From: Bacteroidota bacterium
GTDB taxonomy: Bacteria > Bacteroidota > Ignavibacteria > Ch128b
Direction of reading: 5' to 3'
Assembly (NCBI GenBank): GCA_018828505.1
Contig: JAHJVF010000028.1
Location: 1-40,805, forward strand
DNA: 40,805 nt
Positions 1 through 35,764 of this stretch are shown here, in pieces (the first letter of the stretch is position 1; each line of letters begins with the position of its first letter). The translations under genes were made by a program, and so were the position numbers. The notes under the pieces were generated by a model. That model worked only from the letters and a program-made list of their open reading frames with translations. It searched no databases and had not been told where the DNA came from.

Positions 1-113
1 ATCATAGCCTGCCCATTCATAGCCTGCCCATTCATAGCCTGCCCATTCATAGCTATTTTGTGGCGGGCTATTTTGTAGCGGGCTATTTTGTGGCGGGCGT
101 TGTCTTGGCAGGC
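1..113. repeat. GC-core hairpin repeat, copy 1 (cut by the window edge): tandem 15-nt units CATAGCCTGCCCATT followed by tandem 15-nt units TATTTTGT(G/A)GCGGGC and a terminal GGCAGGC
   Basis: GCCTGCC cores read directly at 7, 22 and 37. GGCGGGC/AGCGGGC/GGCAGGC cores at 62, 77, 92 and 107. All are spaced 15 nt apart, and the left and right cores are complementary apart from one G-T/U position. Confidence 0.85.
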
Positions 114-328
114 GAGAATTAACGTGGCGGGCAGGTCGGGACGTATCGGCCTTCGGCAATCCCGCCAAAGGCGCATATGCGTCAACTTAAGGAAAAGATT
201 TTGTTTTTTAATTATAAATAGCCCCAACTTTTGGCATTGCCATTCCTTCGGAATAAGTTGGGGAAAGGATAATCTTCCCAAAACCTTGGGCTTTAGCCCA
301 AATATTCTATTTTTACCAGCCACATCAT

Positions 329-408
329 TCCTGCCCCTTCATAGCCTGCCCATTCATAGCTATTTTGTAGCGGGCTATTTTGTGGCGGGCGTTGTCTTGG
401 CAGGTTGG
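329..408. repeat. GC-core hairpin repeat, copy 2 (CCTGCCCC TTCATAGCCTGCCC ATTCATAGC TATTTTGTAGCGGGC TATTTTGTGGCGGGC GTTGTCTTGGCAGGTTGG)
   Basis: Near-identical to copies 1 and 3, with a different number of 15-nt units. Confidence 0.85.
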
Positions 409-523
409 TAAACAGGCGGGGTTGAAATAATAACCATGCATCATAACTCTCGACCTTGAAGGATTACACAGCTTAAACGTCATTTACAACCTTCAAGGTC
501 ACTCCCATAAATAAACCTTGAGG

Positions 524-596
524 GCTGCCTCACCTGCCCCTTCATAGCCTGCCCATTCATAGCTATTTTGTGGCGGGCGTTATCTTGGCAGGTTGG
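524..596. repeat. GC-core hairpin repeat, copy 3
   Basis: Contains CACCTGCCCCTTCATAGCCTGCCCATTCATAGCTATTTTGTGGCGGGCGTTATCTTGGCAGGTTGG, which matches copy 2 almost base for base. Confidence 0.85.
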
Positions 597-739
597 ACTA
601 AAGTCCTCTTTCGGGGGAGTGAATATTAGTCCCCTACATGCCTGCCCGCCAATCCAGATTACGTGAGGCAGGCGGGAATGTCGGGGCAATTCAAGCAAAA
701 TTATAGTTAAGTTGACGCCAATGCGCCAAAGGCGGGACT

Positions 740-759
740 TTCCGAAGGATCCTTCGGAA
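740..759. repeat. Perfect 20-nt palindrome TTCCGAAGGATCCTTCGGAA (CCGAAGG/CCTTCGG hairpin family)
   Basis: The sequence is self-complementary. The same CCGAAGG...CCTTCGG arms recur at 4358-4396 and 20567-20593. Confidence 0.8.
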
Positions 760-779
760 ATGAACTTTTTGGGTTAAAC

Positions 780-1553
780 TTAAACGAAAAGATTCCAGAG
801 TATATAATCGAGTATTAAGATAATAGCAGCAGAAAGAACAAAAGACCGAATAGTTGAAAGTCCGACTCCCTCAGCTCCTCCTTCTGTTTTGAAGCCGATA
901 TGACAACCGATTAGCGCGGTCATCGCTCCGAAGAAAGTTGCTTTAACCAATCCAAAAACAAAATCGCCAAAAGCGAAAAAGTTTCTCACAGATTCAAAAA
1001 ATACATTGAATGAAATCCCAAGAGAGAAATTACATACAAAGTAAGCACCGCAGACAGCAATTACATCAGCAAAGATCACAAGCAGCGGGATCATAATTAA
1101 AGAAGCTAAATATCTTGGCATTGCTAAATATCGCACCGGATTGATCGACATTGTTTCGAGCGCATCGATCTGTTCGGTAACTTTCATTGTTCCAAGCTCG
1201 GCAGCAATTGACGCACCAACTCGACCGGCTATTACAATTCCCGTTAATACCGGACCTAACTCGGTGATCACAGCACGAACAGTTGCTCCACCGATAAATG
1301 AAAGTGGTGCAAGCCCCTTTAATTGATAAGCAGCCTGCCATGCAGAAACCGCTCCGGTAAAAATTGCGATTATTACAACTAATGGCAGAGAATTAACCCC
1401 AATGTGTTCCATCTGTTTGAGAATTAATTTTCGGTCGCGAAAAACTCTCACCATGCTTATATGAATCTTAAAAAAGAGCGTGCTGATCTCCCCAAATTCG
1501 TTTAGGAAAGAAAGAGTTTTTGAACCGATTTTATCTAGTATAAAAGCTAACAA
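780..1553 (-). CDS. mlaE: MlaE/YrbE-family ABC transporter permease (lipid asymmetry maintenance type)
   Basis: 257 aa with multiple TM segments. Carries the conserved block LGPVLTGIVIAGRVGASIAAELGTMKVTEQIDALETMSINPVRYLAMPR typical of MlaE. TTG start with GGAG 8 nt upstream. Confidence 0.85.
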   Translation of the reverse strand: MLAFILDKIGSKTLSFLNEFGEISTLFFKIHISMVRVFRDRKLILKQMEHIGVNSLPLVVIIAIFTGAVSAWQAAYQLKGLAPLSFIGGATVRAVITELGPVLTGIVIAGRVGASIAAELGTMKVTEQIDALETMSINPVRYLAMPRYLASLIMIPLLVIFADVIAVCGAYFVCNFSLGISFNVFFESVRNFFAFGDFVFGLVKATFFGAMTALIGCHIGFKTEGGAEGVGLSTIRSFVLSAAIILILDYILWNLFV

Positions 1554-2858: not shown

Positions 2859-4325
2859 ATGAACGAGTGGAAATGGTCAATTAAGAATGAAGGATTTCTT
2901 CAGAGATCAATTGAACGATGCAGAAAGCAAAAGATAATTCTTCCAACTTTCAAACAGCTAAAAGAACCCGGTACGGTCCCGAAATCAATTCAATCCCAGC
3001 TCGGAAAGATCGGAATGGAAGAGCTTCATCCACTGAATCTTTTCAGGATAAATTGGAGGAACGATCCGTCAAGCGGAGAGATTGGTGGTATAAACTATCT
3101 GGAAATTCCAAAAGAGATTACCGGTGTAAAAGCGCGAATAATTGGACTTGTAGGAAAATTTTTCCCAACGGGCGCTCACAAAGTAGGTGCGACTTATGGT
3201 TGTCTAGTTCCTTATTTAGTAACTGGCAGATTTAATCCCGATTATCATAAAGCAGTTTGGCCATCGACGGGTAATTACTGCCGCGGTGGCGCATTCAATT
3301 CCGCTTTGCTCGGCGTACATGCAGTTGCAATTCTTCCTGAAGAAATGAGCAAAGAAAGATTTGAGTGGCTAAAAAAAATCGGATCGGAAGTTTATGCCAC
3401 TCCCGGATGCGAAAGCAACGTGAAAGAAATTTACGATAAATGCCATGAGCTTGAAGCACAAAGTGATGAATATTTGATCTTCAATCAATTCGATCAATTT
3501 GGAAATGCAATCTGGCACTATGAAGTTACGGGTTCAACAATAGAAACATTATTTTATCAGATTAAAACTAAGAATCAGCGCTTAAGCGGGTATGTTAGCG
3601 CCACCGGCTCTGCCGGAACGATTGGTGCTGGAGATTACCTGCGTGAAAAATTTCCATCGATAAAGATTACTGCTTCAGAAGCATTGCAGTGTCCGACTCT
3701 TCTCATGAATGGATATGGTGCCCACAGAATTGAAGGAATCGGCGACAAACATATCCCCTGGATTCATAATGTAAAAAATACTGATGTTGTAACAGCTATA
3801 GACGATGAAGATCCTTTGAGAATATTACGGTTATTCAATGAAGAATCCGGACGAAAATTTTTATCAAGTATCGGGCTTAGTGAAGATACACTCAAAAAAT
3901 TACCATACATGGGAATTTCATCAATAAGCAATATGATTTCAGCAATTAAGCTCGCTAAATATTATGAGTTCAATGAGAATGATGTTGTCTTCACGATTTT
4001 CACTGATTCAGTTGAGATGTACCGATCAAGACTTGAAGAGATGAACCAAGCCTTGGGGAGCTATTCCGAAAAGCAAGCCGAGATTGATTGGCACTCTGTT
4101 TTACAAAGACAAAAGATTGATTACATAAAAGAGCTTACGTATTATGATAAGAAAACAATTCATAATCTTAAGTACTTCACCTGGATTGAACAGCAAGGAA
4201 AGGATGTTGAAGAATTGAATGCTCAATGGTATGATGATAATTATTGGAAAGAAAGATTTTCGATAGTTCCCGAATGGGATAAGTTAATCGATGAGTTTAA
4301 TCGAAACGTTGGTTTGAAATTGTAA
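2859..4325 (+). CDS. Fold-type II pyridoxal-phosphate-dependent enzyme (cysteine synthase / Trp-synthase-beta superfamily, long form)
   Basis: Motifs FPTGAHKVGA (candidate PLP lysine), STGNYCRGGAF and SATGSAGTIGAG (glycine-rich phosphate loop). The ORF track starts at TTG 2835; the first ATG is at 2859. Confidence 0.65.
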   Translation: MNEWKWSIKNEGFLQRSIERCRKQKIILPTFKQLKEPGTVPKSIQSQLGKIGMEELHPLNLFRINWRNDPSSGEIGGINYLEIPKEITGVKARIIGLVGKFFPTGAHKVGATYGCLVPYLVTGRFNPDYHKAVWPSTGNYCRGGAFNSALLGVHAVAILPEEMSKERFEWLKKIGSEVYATPGCESNVKEIYDKCHELEAQSDEYLIFNQFDQFGNAIWHYEVTGSTIETLFYQIKTKNQRLSGYVSATGSAGTIGAGDYLREKFPSIKITASEALQCPTLLMNGYGAHRIEGIGDKHIPWIHNVKNTDVVTAIDDEDPLRILRLFNEESGRKFLSSIGLSEDTLKKLPYMGISSISNMISAIKLAKYYEFNENDVVFTIFTDSVEMYRSRLEEMNQALGSYSEKQAEIDWHSVLQRQKIDYIKELTYYDKKTIHNLKYFTWIEQQGKDVEELNAQWYDDNYWKERFSIVPEWDKLIDEFNRNVGLKL

Positions 4326-30747: not shown

Positions 30748-30845
30748 TTTACAATTTGTAATCACGTTTGTTGTTATGAATTCGGTGATGAGAAAAATCG
30801 ATTATTTGCATTATAGTATTGTGAACAATATTTTTATTTTTTATG

Positions 30846-31050
30846 CCTGCCTGCATACCTTCGGTATGTAAACTGGCAGGCAGGTCAAAATATTTAAAAC
30901 TGATTTTCTCCATTTTCCCCGCCTACACTGCGTTTCGGCGGGCAGGCATCTTCCATTCACCCCGCCTGCCAATACATAGCTATCTCGTGGCAGGTTGGAT
31001 AACTTATTTATATAGCCAGTGATATTTTTTAAAAAGTATATCCAACGGGG
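30846..31050. repeat. Second cluster of GC-core hairpin repeats (same word set as 1-780) plus a GTTGGATA...TATCCAACGGGG hairpin
   Basis: CCTGCCTGC / GCAGGCAGG hairpin at 30846-30884 encloses ATACCTTCGGTAT. CATTCACCCCGCCTGCCAATACATAGCTATCTCGTGGCAGGTTGG resembles copies 1-3. ATATCCAACGGGG at 31038-31050 is identical to 21414-21426. Confidence 0.8.
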
Positions 31051-33028: not shown

Positions 33029-35764
33029 TTATTTCAATTTAGGTTTGAAATTTCTTAACCGATTTGCATTTGTTACAACAGTTACGGAACTAAACGCCAT
33101 TGCAGCACCGGCAATTAACGGTGATAGCAATAATCCAAAGAATGGATAAAGTAATCCGGCAGCAACTGGAATTCCCAGTCCGTTATAAAAGAATGCGCCG
33201 AAAAGATTTTCTTTTATGTTTTTCATAGTCGCTTTAGAAAGTTGAATTGCAAGAACAACTCCTTTTAAGCTTCCTTTGATTAAGGTAATATCAGAAGCCT
33301 CAATTGCTACATCTGTTCCAGTGCCAATTGCTAATCCTATATCAGCTTGAGCAAGAGCAGGGGCATCGTTTATTCCATCACCAACCATCGCAACTTTTTT
33401 CCCTTCATTCTGAAGTTTCTGAACATTGAATGCCTTGTCTTCTGGAAGAACTTCAGCTAGGACTCTATCAATTCCAACCTGTCTGGCAATAGCGTTTGCT
33501 GTTCGGCTGTTATCACCGGTTATCATAACAACCTCCAAACCTAATTTTTTCAACTGAGCGATTGCTTCTTTCGAATCAGCTTTTATTGTATCGGCAACCG
33601 CAATTATGCCGGCAGCTTTGTTGTCAATAGCAACGAACATCGGAGTCTTTCCGTCATCAGCTAGGTGAGTGCTTTTTTCTTCGAGTCCACCAAGATCGAT
33701 ATTAAACTTTTTCATCATCTTAAGATTGCCTAAATAAATCTTGCGTCCATTTACATTGGCTTTAACACCATGACCCGGGACAGCGTTAAACTCATTCGGA
33801 TCGACTAGAGTAATTCCTTTGTCAATAGCTCCTTTAACAATTGCTTCAGCTAATGGATGTTCGGATACTTTCTCAACACTTGCACTGAGGGAGAGTACTT
33901 CTTCTTCAGTGAAGTCATTCGCAACGATAACATCTGTTAGCGAAGGTTTGCCTTCTGTGATAGTTCCGGTTTTATCAAGTACAATAGTATTTAGCTTCTG
34001 AGCAGTCTCTAATGCTTCGCCGCTTCTAATCAATATTCCATTCTCAGCACCTTTACCAACTCCAACCATTAATGAAATTGGCGTTGCAAGACCAAGCGCG
34101 CACGGGCAGGCAATTACCAAAACGGTAACAAATACAATCAAAGAATAAATAAGTTGCGGTTCTGGACCAAAAACATACCAAACAACAAACGATAAAATTG
34201 CTGCGATGACTACTCCCGGTACAAAGTATCCCGAAACTTGATCAACTATTTTTTGAATTGGCGCTTTAGAACTCTGAGCCTGTTCAACCATTTGAATTAT
34301 TTGAGCAAGAGCAGTGTCTTTCCCAACTTTTGTAGCTTTGAACTTGAAAGAGCCTGTCTTATTTATTGTTGCTCCAATTACTTCGTCTCCAAGGTTCTTT
34401 TCGACCGGAATTGCTTCACCAGTTATCATTGATTCATCTACTGACGAAGAACCGTCGATCAGTGTTCCATCTACAGGAATTTTTTCACCTGGCCTAACTA
34501 AAATAATTTCATCTAATACAACTTCTTCAACCGGAATATCTAAATCTTTTCCATCTCTTATAACGCGTGCAGTTTTAGCTTGAAGACCAATTAATTTTTT
34601 AATTGCTTCAGAACTTTTTCCCTTAGCTCGAATTTCTAAAGCCATTCCTAAAACTACTAAAGCTACAACTACAAATATTACATCGAAGAACTGATCCGCT
34701 AATTCAGCTTTGGGAAAAACTGACGGGAAGTAAGTAGCAATAACTGAGTAGAGAAACGCAGCAGTAATACCGGTTGCAATAAGTGTGTGCATATTTGCAG
34801 ACCTGTTTTTGAATGCAGCCCAAGCTCCTGTATAAAATTGTGAGCCGGACCAGAACATTACTGGCAAGCTGAGCAAACTCATCGCTACCCAGATATATCT
34901 CAATATTGGAGACCCCATTTGAAATTGTTCGGGTAAACCCCAGACAGTCGGGTAACTGAAAAATATTACCGGCAGAGATAAAATCGCAGCGAAAATAAAT
35001 TTATTCATAAGGGTCTTATATTCTTTTTCGCGGGCGGCTTGGTTCTCATCAACCGGTTCTTCCCTGCCTGCGCCTGCCTGCGCAGGCGGGCGGGCAGGTT
35101 TTTGTTCTTTTCCATCTTCCTTTGGCTTAACTCCCGAAGTATCAAACGTTTTGTAACCAAGTTTTTCAATTACTTTTTTAATTTCGTTAACATTTATTGA
35201 GCCGGGCACATAATTAATTAATGCTGATTCACTTCCGAGATCGATGCTCGCAGAAATTATTCCTTTTGTCTGGGCGAATTCCTTTTCAATTTTTGTTACA
35301 CACGAGCCGCAGTGCATTCCGTTAATTCCAAGTTTGAGCGTTGACATCCCAGCTTGGTAGCCGGCATTTTTTACTGCGGAAATAATTTCGGAAGTAGATG
35401 TTTCTGCATTTTTAAATTCTACAAAAGCTGTTTCCGAAGCGTAGTTTACAACAGCCGATTTTATACCCGGCAATTTCTTGATCTCTTTCTCAATAGTATT
35501 TACACAAGTTGAACAGCTTAATCCTTGTATTTGCAGTTGTAATTTTTCAATGCCATCTATTGTTGTTCTGTTTGAAGCTTCACTGCTTTGTTTGTGCACA
35601 AATTCATTCGGGTTCAGCTCAAATTTATTCTTGCAATTATCAGAACAAAAATCGAATCTCTTTCCATTCGTATCTAGAAAATATTTCGAAGGCGACTTCA
35701 CTTCCATTCCGCACACTGGATCGTGAACCGGATAATTTTTTGTTGAAGAGCCGTTATTAGACAT
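33029..35764 (-). CDS. copA: Copper-translocating P1B-type ATPase with an N-terminal YHS/TRASH domain and two HMA domains
   Basis: CGMEV...FCSDNC, GLSCSTC and GMHCGSC metal-binding domains. CPC motif ([11 protein letters not shown]), [15 protein letters not shown]. Confidence 0.95.
35062..35098. repeat. GC-core hairpin (CCTGCC TGCGCCTGCC tgcgca GGCGGGC GGGCAGG) embedded in frame in copA
   Basis: Same core words as the 1-780 repeats. Folds as 8 bp, a 2-nt bulge, then 6 bp. Encodes [12 protein letters not shown] in the linker between HMA2 and the first TM. Confidence 0.75.

What the first reader, a model, noticed from the sequence alone, without database searches (positions are those of the whole stretch)
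35062..35098. GC-core hairpin repeat apparently inserted in frame inside copA (RPE-like behaviour)
A 37-nt block made only of the repeat-family words (CCTGCC, GCCTGCC, GGCGGGC, GGCAGG) forms a strong hairpin. It lies within the otherwise AT-rich copA gene. It encodes [12 protein letters not shown] in the flexible linker between the second HMA domain and the first TM helix, and the frame stays intact. This resembles Rickettsia palindromic elements, which insert in frame into protein-coding genes and add peptide segments at permissive sites.
Basis: partly seen in the sequence, partly recalled or inferred. Interest (0 to 1): 0.6.

Follow-up and report, generated by a model that had tools for sequence, protein, structure and literature searches.

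The report
In-frame hairpin repeat inside copA
A 36-base GC-rich hairpin repeat, present in about 300 copies in this Bacteroidota (Ignavibacteria-like) genome, sits in frame in the flexible linker of the copper pump CopA and adds 12 amino acids; the same repeat does this in at least 30 other genes, which is a new example of behaviour already known from Rickettsia and from other small bacterial palindromic repeats (REPs).

Summary
Window 35063-35098 is a 36-nt block at 83% GC inside copA (39% GC). It encodes [12 protein letters not shown], CopA residues 223-234, between the second HMA domain and the first membrane helix.

The block has the architecture of a genome-wide family: CCCGCCTGCC-N16-GGCGGGCAGG. 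Its right arm matches 10/10, its left arm 8/10, the spacing is exactly 16 nt, and it has the family's flanking C at -4 and T at +1. The family has about 290 canonical copies. GGCGGGCAGG occurs 322 times against 0.6 expected.

None of 22 CopA orthologs (83% identity or lower in the aligned region) has the block; their linkers are Lys/Glu-rich and 11-34 residues long. All nine members of the ≥90% cluster carry it; the two compared pairwise are 93-94% identical.

The RPE-like reading holds genome-wide. Thirty-five canonical copies lie in long ORFs with the frame kept, and only one has a stop. guaA carries two exact 12-residue insertions, one confirmed at DNA level as 36 nt without target duplication, absent from same-genus orthologs.

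The family is neither an RPE homolog nor a tagged, RAYT-flanked REP, and its mobilising enzyme was not found. No clean empty site exists for copA. Verdict: a new member of a known kind, of moderate interest.

The parts
35063..35098 (+). 36-nt repeat unit, with the family's canonical orientation on the + strand (antisense to copA). It is translated on the minus strand as [12 protein letters not shown], CopA residues 223-234.
35063..35072 (+). Left arm CCTGCCTGCG, matching 8 of 10 positions of the consensus CCCGCCTGCC.
35073..35088 (+). 16-nt spacer CCTGCCTGCGCAGGCG. The length is canonical, but it is unusually GC-rich and itself built from family words. It extends the stem, giving -28 kcal/mol against about -15 for typical units.
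35089..35098 (+). Right arm GGCGGGCAGG, matching the consensus 10/10.
35059..35059 (+). Flanking C at -4, found in 77% of family copies.
35099..35099 (+). Flanking T at +1, found in 58% of family copies. It begins a T-run, TTTTTGTTCTTTT.
33029..35764 (-). copA, a 911-aa P1B-type Cu+ ATPase with YHS, 2x HMA, E1-E2 ATPase and HAD domains. It is the host gene.
35150..35326 (-). Coding region of the second HMA domain (residues 147-205).
35000..35149 (-). Linker between HMA2 and the first membrane helix (residues 206 to about 255). Its length varies from 11 to 34 residues among orthologs.
641..676 (-). Another canonical 36-nt family copy in the window, intergenic.

Best explanation
The block is one copy of a short, non-autonomous, hairpin-forming repeat of the REP type. 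It lies inside copA and is translated as part of the protein.

Shown:
- The family unit is exactly 36 nt: two nearly invariant 10-nt GC arms around a 16-nt variable spacer.
- There are about 290 canonical copies in this genome. Most are intergenic.
- The spacers fall into lineages, so units are copied whole and then diverge.
- New copies appear as exact 36-nt additions without target duplication, at sites with C at -4 and T at +1.

Inferred:
- Because 36 nt is 12 codons and the arms contain no stop codons, a unit landing in a gene keeps the frame and adds 12 residues.
- Copies survive only where the protein tolerates them and where the spacer has no stop in the frame used.
- In copA the unit sits in the naturally length-variable linker between the second metal-binding domain and the first membrane helix. 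It is probably neutral or nearly so.
- It entered before the divergence of the present ≥90% cluster and has since changed only by point substitution.

Not established: the enzyme that mobilises the family. A single-strand hairpin mechanism of the HUH/Y1 type fits the lack of target duplication, but no transposase gene was found next to family copies.
For: Family definition and enrichment:
- GGCGGGCAGG occurs 322 times against 0.6 expected.
- The spacer is 16 nt in 262 of 358 arm pairs.
- Position weights show arms 93-100% conserved, C at -4 and T at +1.

The copA copy fits the unit: 36 nt, right arm 10/10, left arm 8/10, 16-nt spacing, C at 35059 and T at 35099.

Lineage specificity:
- Orthologs lack the block.
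- All 9 cluster members carry it; the two compared pairwise are 93-94% identical. Four independent assemblies carry it at DNA level, two of them with a single-base variant.

In-frame behaviour elsewhere:
- Thirty-five of 290 canonical units have at least 60 open codons on both sides in the same frame. One has an internal stop, where about 8 are expected from the background rates of 12-68% per frame. The frameshifted control gives 2.
- The host genes are real: guaA, a NuoF-like protein, alpha-amylase, UvrD, a histidine kinase, SpoIIE and others.
- guaA has two exact 12-column gaps against same-genus orthologs at 82% identity.
- Orientation is biased only inside CDSs: 41 to 13 (p = 2e-4), against 55 to 47 in intergenic copies. 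The filter therefore acts after insertion, at the level of the product.

Copying with divergence: 181 distinct spacers fall into 56 clusters.

Distribution: 195 exact copies here, 1-17 in 28 of 400 other genomes of the class, and 0 for the reversed control.
Against: - No clean empty site for copA. The nearest ortholog without the block (83% identity) differs throughout the linker, so insertion cannot be separated from replacement or local rearrangement.
- The copA copy is atypical. Its spacer is GC-rich and unique, its left arm has two mismatches, and its core resembles a short-palindrome subfamily, GCCTGCCTGC(C)GCAGGCAGG.
- Not every in-CDS case is a clean 36 nt. The NuoF-like gene differs from its orthologs by 16 residues.
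- No transposase is linked to the family. Y1 genes in this and ten other genomes are not adjacent to listed copies and carry their own different hairpins, and no gene is recurrently bracketed by the family.
- Translation of the insert is inferred from frame and stop statistics.
Confidence: 0.85

Rival explanations
1. The block arose locally rather than by insertion of a whole unit. Possible routes are gene conversion or recombination with another family copy, slippage, or hairpin-templated repair that rebuilt part of an already variable linker out of family words.
For: The spacer is made of family words and is unique. The core resembles a separate short-palindrome subfamily. The linker shows no clean 36-nt gap against the 83% ortholog. 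The NuoF-like case shows that in-CDS events are not always exact units.
Against: The exact 36-nt length, the 16-nt spacing, a perfect right arm, and the C at -4 and T at +1 all match the canonical unit. Clean whole-unit insertions are seen in guaA.
Confidence: 0.08
2. The hairpin is retained in copA because it does something. On the + strand it may terminate antisense transcription. On the mRNA it may pause ribosomes between the metal-binding domains and the membrane domain.
For: On the + strand the stem is followed by TTTTTGTTCTTTT and is called terminator-like. The structure is unusually stable, -28 kcal/mol against about -15 for typical units. The block is kept with only single-base changes in the cluster members examined, which are 93-94% identical.
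Against: The terminator scan found 2 sites where shuffles give 1.1, so this is not significant. The same unit sits at arbitrary positions in 30 or more unrelated genes. Two of the three variant alleles change stem bases without compensation. Orthologs do without the block.
Confidence: 0.05
3. This is ordinary linker composition: a Pro/Ala/Gly-rich flexible linker that evolved in place and resembles the repeat by chance.
For: CopA linkers vary in length and sequence.
Against: Orthologous linkers are Lys/Glu-rich and AT-rich. The DNA matches a 10-mer that occurs 322 times against 0.6 expected, with the family's spacing and flanks. GC3 is 0.67 in the block against 0.29 in the rest of the gene.
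Confidence: 0.02
4. Assembly or binning artefact: a chimeric join through a repeat.
For: The genome is a fragmented MAG, and 31% of family copies lie at contig edges.
Against: The block, with single-base variants and diverged flanks, is present in independent assemblies from different samples and sources.
Confidence: 0.01

Closest known systems
Rickettsia palindromic elements (RPE; Ogata et al. 2000 and 2002, as summarised in PMC10969869 and PMC3733652)
   Same: Palindromic repeats are found both between genes and in frame inside many unrelated, apparently functional genes. They add a short peptide while the frame stays open.
   Different: RPEs are about 100-150 bp, belong to obligate intracellular Alphaproteobacteria, and each family encodes a conserved peptide. 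Here the unit is 36 nt, only the arms are conserved, it is read in five of the six frames, the host is a Bacteroidota (Ignavibacteria-like) MAG, and there is no sequence relationship.
REPs with intragenic copies (GTAG- and CGTC-tagged REP superfamilies; Di Nocera, De Gregorio and Rocco 2013, PMC3733652)
   Same: These are 20-40-nt GC-rich imperfect palindromes in high copy number. They are mostly extragenic and often occur in oppositely oriented pairs. A minority lie wholly inside ORFs, including UvrD-type helicase genes as here.
   Different: This family has no GTAG or CGTC tag. No RAYT gene was found flanked by it. The arms are not a simple inverted repeat but are arranged as X-Y-CC ... GG-X*-Y* (CCCG CCTG CC / GG CGGG CAGG). 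That arrangement gives either a 10-bp stem with a fixed C.A mismatch and U.G pair, or two alternative perfect 6-bp stems.
IS200/IS605-type single-strand transposition and REPIN/RAYT systems (PMC2817692, PMC3337134)
   Same: Hairpin-bearing units are inserted without target-site duplication next to a short preferred target. The genome is rich in Y1 transposase genes: 16 hits, the most among 41 relatives.
   Different: No Y1 gene is adjacent to family copies in 11 genomes examined. There is no guide-target covariation and no strand bias in intergenic copies.

Membership tests
Rickettsia palindromic elements (RPE) | Palindromic repeat inserted in frame in protein-coding genes that stay open | tested here: met
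Rickettsia palindromic elements (RPE) | Unit of about 100-150 bp encoding a family-specific conserved peptide, in the Rickettsia/Wolbachia lineage | tested here: not met
   The unit is 36 nt, only the arms are conserved, and it is read in five frames. The host is a Bacteroidota MAG whose nearest named CopA homologs are from Ignavibacteriales and Melioribacter.
REP (repetitive extragenic palindromes) | 20-40-nt imperfect GC-rich palindrome present in more than 100 copies | tested here: met
   36 nt, about 290 canonical copies and 534 word clusters.
REP (repetitive extragenic palindromes) | Predominantly extragenic | tested here: met
   12-19% of copies lie inside ORFs, against about 83% ORF coverage of the genome.
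REP (repetitive extragenic palindromes) | Oppositely oriented neighbouring pairs or clusters (BIME/REPIN-like) | tested here: inconclusive
   Pairs are seen, for example C90 345-379(+)/397-431(-), C226 899(+)/951(-) and C151 6886(-)/6952(+). They were not counted against chance.
REP (GTAG/CGTC superfamilies) | GTAG or CGTC tetranucleotide tag at one end | tested here: not met
   The consensus ends and flanks are TC-NNN-CCCGCC...GGCAGG-T.
REP-RAYT / REPtron | A Y1 (RAYT) transposase gene flanked by copies of the repeat | tested here: not met
   Y1 genes carry other hairpins on their flanks. Y1 loci in ten other element-bearing genomes are not adjacent to listed copies. No recurrent bracketed gene was found. 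Assembly breaks at repeats could hide one.
MITE | Terminal inverted repeats with a target-site duplication, 70-300 bp | tested here: not met
   No target-site duplication at the guaA site or across 232 copies, and the unit is 36 nt.
BoxC-like / triplex-motif repeats bracketing DUF559 nuclease genes (a lead from an earlier scan note) | The repeat flanks DUF559 genes | tested here: not met
   Of the 11 DUF559 hits in this genome, the flanks of 10 were inspected. Several carry a different repeat (ccccacc...ggggtgggg type), and none is bracketed by this family.
Rfam RNA families | Match to a curated covariance model | tested here: not met
   There were 0 matches in the window at gathering thresholds.

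The most novel reading that the evidence does not exclude
The 36-nt unit is not just a decaying selfish repeat. It is a motif recognised by some factor that is conserved across the class. Its arms and exact 16-nt spacing are identical in 21 genera of several families, while the spacer is free to vary. Its swapped-register arms (X-Y ... X*-Y*) allow two alternative helices. In this one lineage it has amplified more than tenfold and colonised at least 35 coding sequences as translated 12-residue inserts. The spread would use a mobilising activity that is not a neighbouring RAYT and is so far unknown.
Probability: 0.35. Interest if true: 0.55.

Novelty: new member of a known kind. Interest (0 to 1): 0.38.

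Why it matters
For annotation: low-complexity Pro/Ala/Gly/Arg stretches in proteins of this lineage are repeat insertions, not native features. They mark permissive loops in enzymes such as GuaA, a NuoF-like protein, alpha-amylase and CopA.

For biology: this is in-frame colonisation of coding sequence, on a scale comparable to the 44 RPE insertions reported for Rickettsia conorii, in a Bacteroidota lineage outside the obligate intracellular Alphaproteobacteria. The unit is very small, exactly 12 codons. The contrast in orientation bias between in-gene and intergenic copies gives a simple read-out of selection on translated repeats.

The mobilising enzyme is unknown, and the arms are conserved across the class. 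Together these make the family a usable test case for how REP-like elements without a RAYT spread.

Tried and rejected
- Clean empty site for copA: not found. All nine members of the ≥90% cluster have the block. The 83% and 75% orthologs differ across the whole linker.
- RAYT link: Y1_Tnp genes are abundant, but they are flanked by their own different hairpins. They are not adjacent to family copies in ten other genomes.
- DUF559 link, a lead from an earlier scan note: those genes are not bracketed by this family, and several are flanked by a different repeat.
- Recurrent gene bracketed by family copies: none found.
- Guide-target pairing between flanks and spacer, target-site duplication, and spacers copied from neighbouring DNA: no signal.
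- Arm covariation. The 3/30 and 7/34 signal is largely the same elements read in both orientations. Only one A/T variant class of about 17 copies is independent, so it is weak evidence for the alternative 6-bp helices.
- Bias toward convergent or tandem intergenic regions, as expected for terminator-like REPs: none clear.
- Rfam: no match.
- A second in-CDS check with the NuoF-like gene gave a 16-residue gap rather than 12, so not all events are exact units.

Full report
**1. The observation**

Window 35062-35098 reads CCCTGCCTGCGCCTGCCTGCGCAGGCGGGCGGGCAGG. It lies inside a 911-residue ORF on the minus strand, 33029..35764. Pfam identifies this ORF as a copper P-type ATPase: YHS at residues 13-58, two HMA domains (the second at 147-205), E1-E2 ATPase at 394-574 and a HAD hydrolase domain at 592-808.

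On the mRNA strand the block encodes [12 protein letters not shown], residues 223-234. That places it in the linker between the second metal-binding domain and the first membrane helix, which begins near residue 255.

The block is a composition island. It is 83% GC with GC3 0.67, while the rest of the gene is 39% GC with GC3 0.29. It folds into a strong hairpin:
- -27 kcal/mol on the mRNA strand, z = -2.6.
- -30.5 kcal/mol on the + strand, z = -3.2.

Its component words are far more frequent in the window than chance allows. The only correction is that the unit is 36 nt (35063-35098).

**2. The repeat family**

The whole genome is a MAG of 3.9 Mb in 539 contigs, at 36.8% GC. In it the 10-mer GGCGGGCAGG occurs 322 times against 0.6 expected.

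Aligning all copies gives a sharply defined unit: CCCGCCTGCC, then 16 variable bases, then GGCGGGCAGG. The spacing is 16 nt in 262 of 358 arm pairs. Arm positions are 93-100% conserved. Outside the unit, only a C at -4 (77%), a weaker T at -5 and a T at +1 (58%) stand out.

About 290 copies fit the canonical 36-nt form, and 534 clusters of family words exist in all. The spacers are diverse but not random: 181 distinct spacers fall into 56 related groups. Units are therefore copied whole and then drift, while the arms stay fixed.

The arms are not a plain inverted repeat. They read X-Y-CC ... GG-X*-Y*, with X = CCCG and Y = CCTG. This gives either a 10-bp stem with a constant C.A mismatch and a U.G pair, or two alternative perfect 6-bp stems. 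I treat the alternative-helix idea as weakly supported.

Nested and tandem units of 72 and 108 nt occur. The window holds other family members at 1-135, 329-408, 524-596, 641-676 and 30844-30994.

**3. Whether the copA block is a member**

It is. It is exactly 36 nt. The right arm matches 10/10, the left arm 8/10, the spacing is 16 nt, and it has the flanking C at -4 (35059) and T at +1 (35099).

It is atypical in one respect. Its spacer (CCTGCCTGCGCAGGCG) is GC-rich, unique, and built from family words. This extends the stem, so that it is about twice as stable as a typical unit.

It is read in the frame and orientation class CCT GCC CGC ..., which gives Pro-Ala-Arg. This is the commonest class among in-gene copies, 13 of 35.

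**4. Lineage specificity in CopA**

I read the linker in twenty-two orthologs at 83% identity or lower in the aligned region (residues 120-420), drawn from a 5.8-billion-protein search, and in the 75% ortholog of a related genus. All have Lys/Glu-rich linkers of 11-34 residues and none has the block. The flanking DNA aligns well, but the linker itself does not. The block is therefore lineage-specific, but there is no clean 36-nt gap.

All nine members of the ≥90% cluster are 911 residues long and carry the block as [24 protein letters not shown] or [12 protein letters not shown]. The two I compared pairwise are 93-94% identical to the window's CopA. Four independent assemblies from different samples and sources carry the block at DNA level, two of them with a single-base variant, and their flanks differ at several positions. 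This excludes an assembly artefact. It also shows that the event predates the divergence of these alleles.

**5. RPE-like behaviour across the genome**

Of 290 canonical units, 35 have at least 60 open codons on both sides in the same frame. Only one contains a stop. The same frames in other copies contain stops 12-68% of the time, so about 8 stops would be expected. A control that requires long ORFs in different frames on the two sides finds 2.

The host ORFs are real genes: GMP synthase, a NuoF-like flavoprotein, alpha-amylase, UvrD helicase, a PAS histidine kinase, a SpoIIE phosphatase, phosphoglucose isomerase, glycoside hydrolases, prolyl oligopeptidase and T9SS-tailed proteins.

GMP synthase is the cleanest case. 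It has two gaps of exactly 12 columns against same-genus orthologs at 82% identity and four more distant orthologs. At one site the DNA alignment shows an exact 36-nt insertion with no target duplication. The alignment failed at the second site, and I reconstructed it by hand as another exact 36-nt addition within a Leu codon. The NuoF-like gene is less tidy, with a 16-residue difference.

Inside genes, the canonical strand is antisense to the gene 41 times and sense 13 times (p = 2e-4). Between tandem genes the counts are 55 and 47. The bias is therefore created after insertion, by what the cell tolerates in the product. This points to the units being translated.

Units are strongly under-represented in coding sequence: 12-19% of copies against about 83% ORF coverage.

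**6. Distribution**

The exact pattern occurs 195 times in this genome. It occurs 17 and 2 times in two congeners, 14 times in another genus of the family, and 1-16 times in 24 further genomes. In total 29 of 401 sampled genomes of the class have it, in 21 of 176 genera. The reversed-sequence control gives zero everywhere. In four low-copy genomes that I inspected, the copies are intergenic. The arms and spacing are thus old and conserved, and the expansion and invasion of genes are specific to this lineage.

**7. Mechanism**

Shown: whole-unit copying, exact insertion without target duplication, a weak target preference, and post-insertion filtering.

Inferred: mobilisation as a single-stranded hairpin.

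Not found: the enzyme.
- This genome has the most Y1 (IS200/RAYT-type) transposase hits among 41 relatives, 16 in all. Each of those I examined is flanked by its own different small hairpin.
- Y1 loci in ten other element-bearing genomes are not next to listed copies.
- DUF559 nuclease genes, suggested by an earlier scan note on another Bacteroidota genome, are not bracketed by this family, and several are flanked by a different repeat.
- No gene is recurrently bracketed by the family.
- There is no guide-target covariation, and the spacers are not copied from the flanks.
- Thirty-one percent of copies sit at contig edges, so a flanked gene could be hidden at assembly breaks.

**8. Comparison with what is known**

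In-frame palindromic repeats are known. RPEs in Rickettsia integrate into many metabolic genes (PMC10969869). GTAG- and CGTC-tagged REPs lie wholly inside ORFs in Opitutus terrae, Thauera and R. conorii, including UvrD-type genes (PMC3733652).

This family behaves like those but fails their membership tests. It is not RPE-sized or RPE-related, it has no GTAG or CGTC tag, it has no flanked RAYT, it has no target duplication as a MITE would, and it matches no Rfam model. I found no paper describing it. Earlier notes of this scan describe analogous cases in CPR bacteria, Wolbachia and another Bacteroidota genome.

**9. Verdict**

The copA instance itself is an ordinary, probably neutral consequence of a repeat expansion. 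The family is a new member of a known kind. Two features deserve follow-up: the class-wide invariant arms with fixed spacing, and the unidentified mobilising activity.

One tool, the look-up of sequencing runs, was closed. I therefore could not obtain read-level or RNA evidence.

Noticed in passing
window 1-780: A gene-free tract at the contig start holds three composite copies built from tandem 15-nt units (CATTCATAGCCTGCC xN followed by TATTTTGTGGCGGGC xN). It also holds a canonical 36-nt unit at 641-676. The number of 15-nt units differs between copies.
   Followed up: partly
window 30844-30994: An intergenic cluster of family variants: GCCTGCCTGC-N22-GGCAGGCAGG at 30844-30886, plus two shorter CCTGCC/GGCAGG hairpins. 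The GCCTGCCTGC...GGCAGGCAGG form recurs in the genome with a shared 'cagtttacat...' spacer.
   Followed up: partly
window 35072-35110 (+ strand): Read antisense to copA, the hairpin is followed by TTTTTGTTCTTTT and is called terminator-like by the pattern scan. The scan's hit count is not above shuffles.
   Followed up: no
G000 C532:282-1901 (L032): guaA (GMP synthase) carries two separate 36-nt units in frame, one in the glutamine amidotransferase domain and one in the ATP-pyrophosphatase domain. Both are absent from two same-genus orthologs and three orthologs from other genera of the family.
   Followed up: yes
G000 C55:8466-8501, C107:2644-2679, C257:1087-1122, C274:5478-5513: Four different T9SS C-terminal sorting domains carry the unit at the same position (…NIKF-HLPASSVANRQAG-IPKTNHVTLKVYD…) with closely related spacers. 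This suggests one old insertion spread by duplication or conversion of the domain, or site-specific reinsertion.
   Followed up: no
G000 C133:720-749 and C255:4440-4475; C155:915-950: Transposase genes are themselves hosts. Two Y1 (IS200/RAYT-type) genes and one DDE transposase gene carry family units in frame.
   Followed up: partly
G000 C34, C210, C535, C269, C16, C276: Small DUF559 (Vsr-like) nuclease genes are flanked by a different GC-rich repeat (cacacccctt...aaggggtgtg or ccccaccc...ggggtgggg type). This matches a pairing that an earlier scan note reported in another Bacteroidota genome.
   Followed up: partly
G000 C424:12850-14050, C434:1-1000, C341:370-900: Each Y1 transposase gene is bracketed by its own small palindrome (for example cctcgaagcttgcttcgggg or ccccagctttcaagctgggg). 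The genome therefore hosts several separate REP-like families besides the one studied.
   Followed up: no
L002 (G021:C2) 3524-3561: In a 73%-identical copA ortholog from another family of the class, the gene is split into two overlapping ORFs exactly in the HMA2-to-membrane linker. This is either a frameshift or a genuine split at the same permissive spot.
   Followed up: no
G000 C442:5663-8896 (L033): The NuoF-like/GltD-like fusion protein has the unit PARHTELEKSGG inside the Nuo51 FMN-binding domain. It differs from same-genus orthologs by 16 residues rather than 12.
   Followed up: partly
L075 (G349:C62:3856-4677): In a distant genome of the class, four units with near-identical spacers are spaced 245-297 nt apart in a gene-free tract. 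This is a longer tandem repeat that contains the unit.
   Followed up: no
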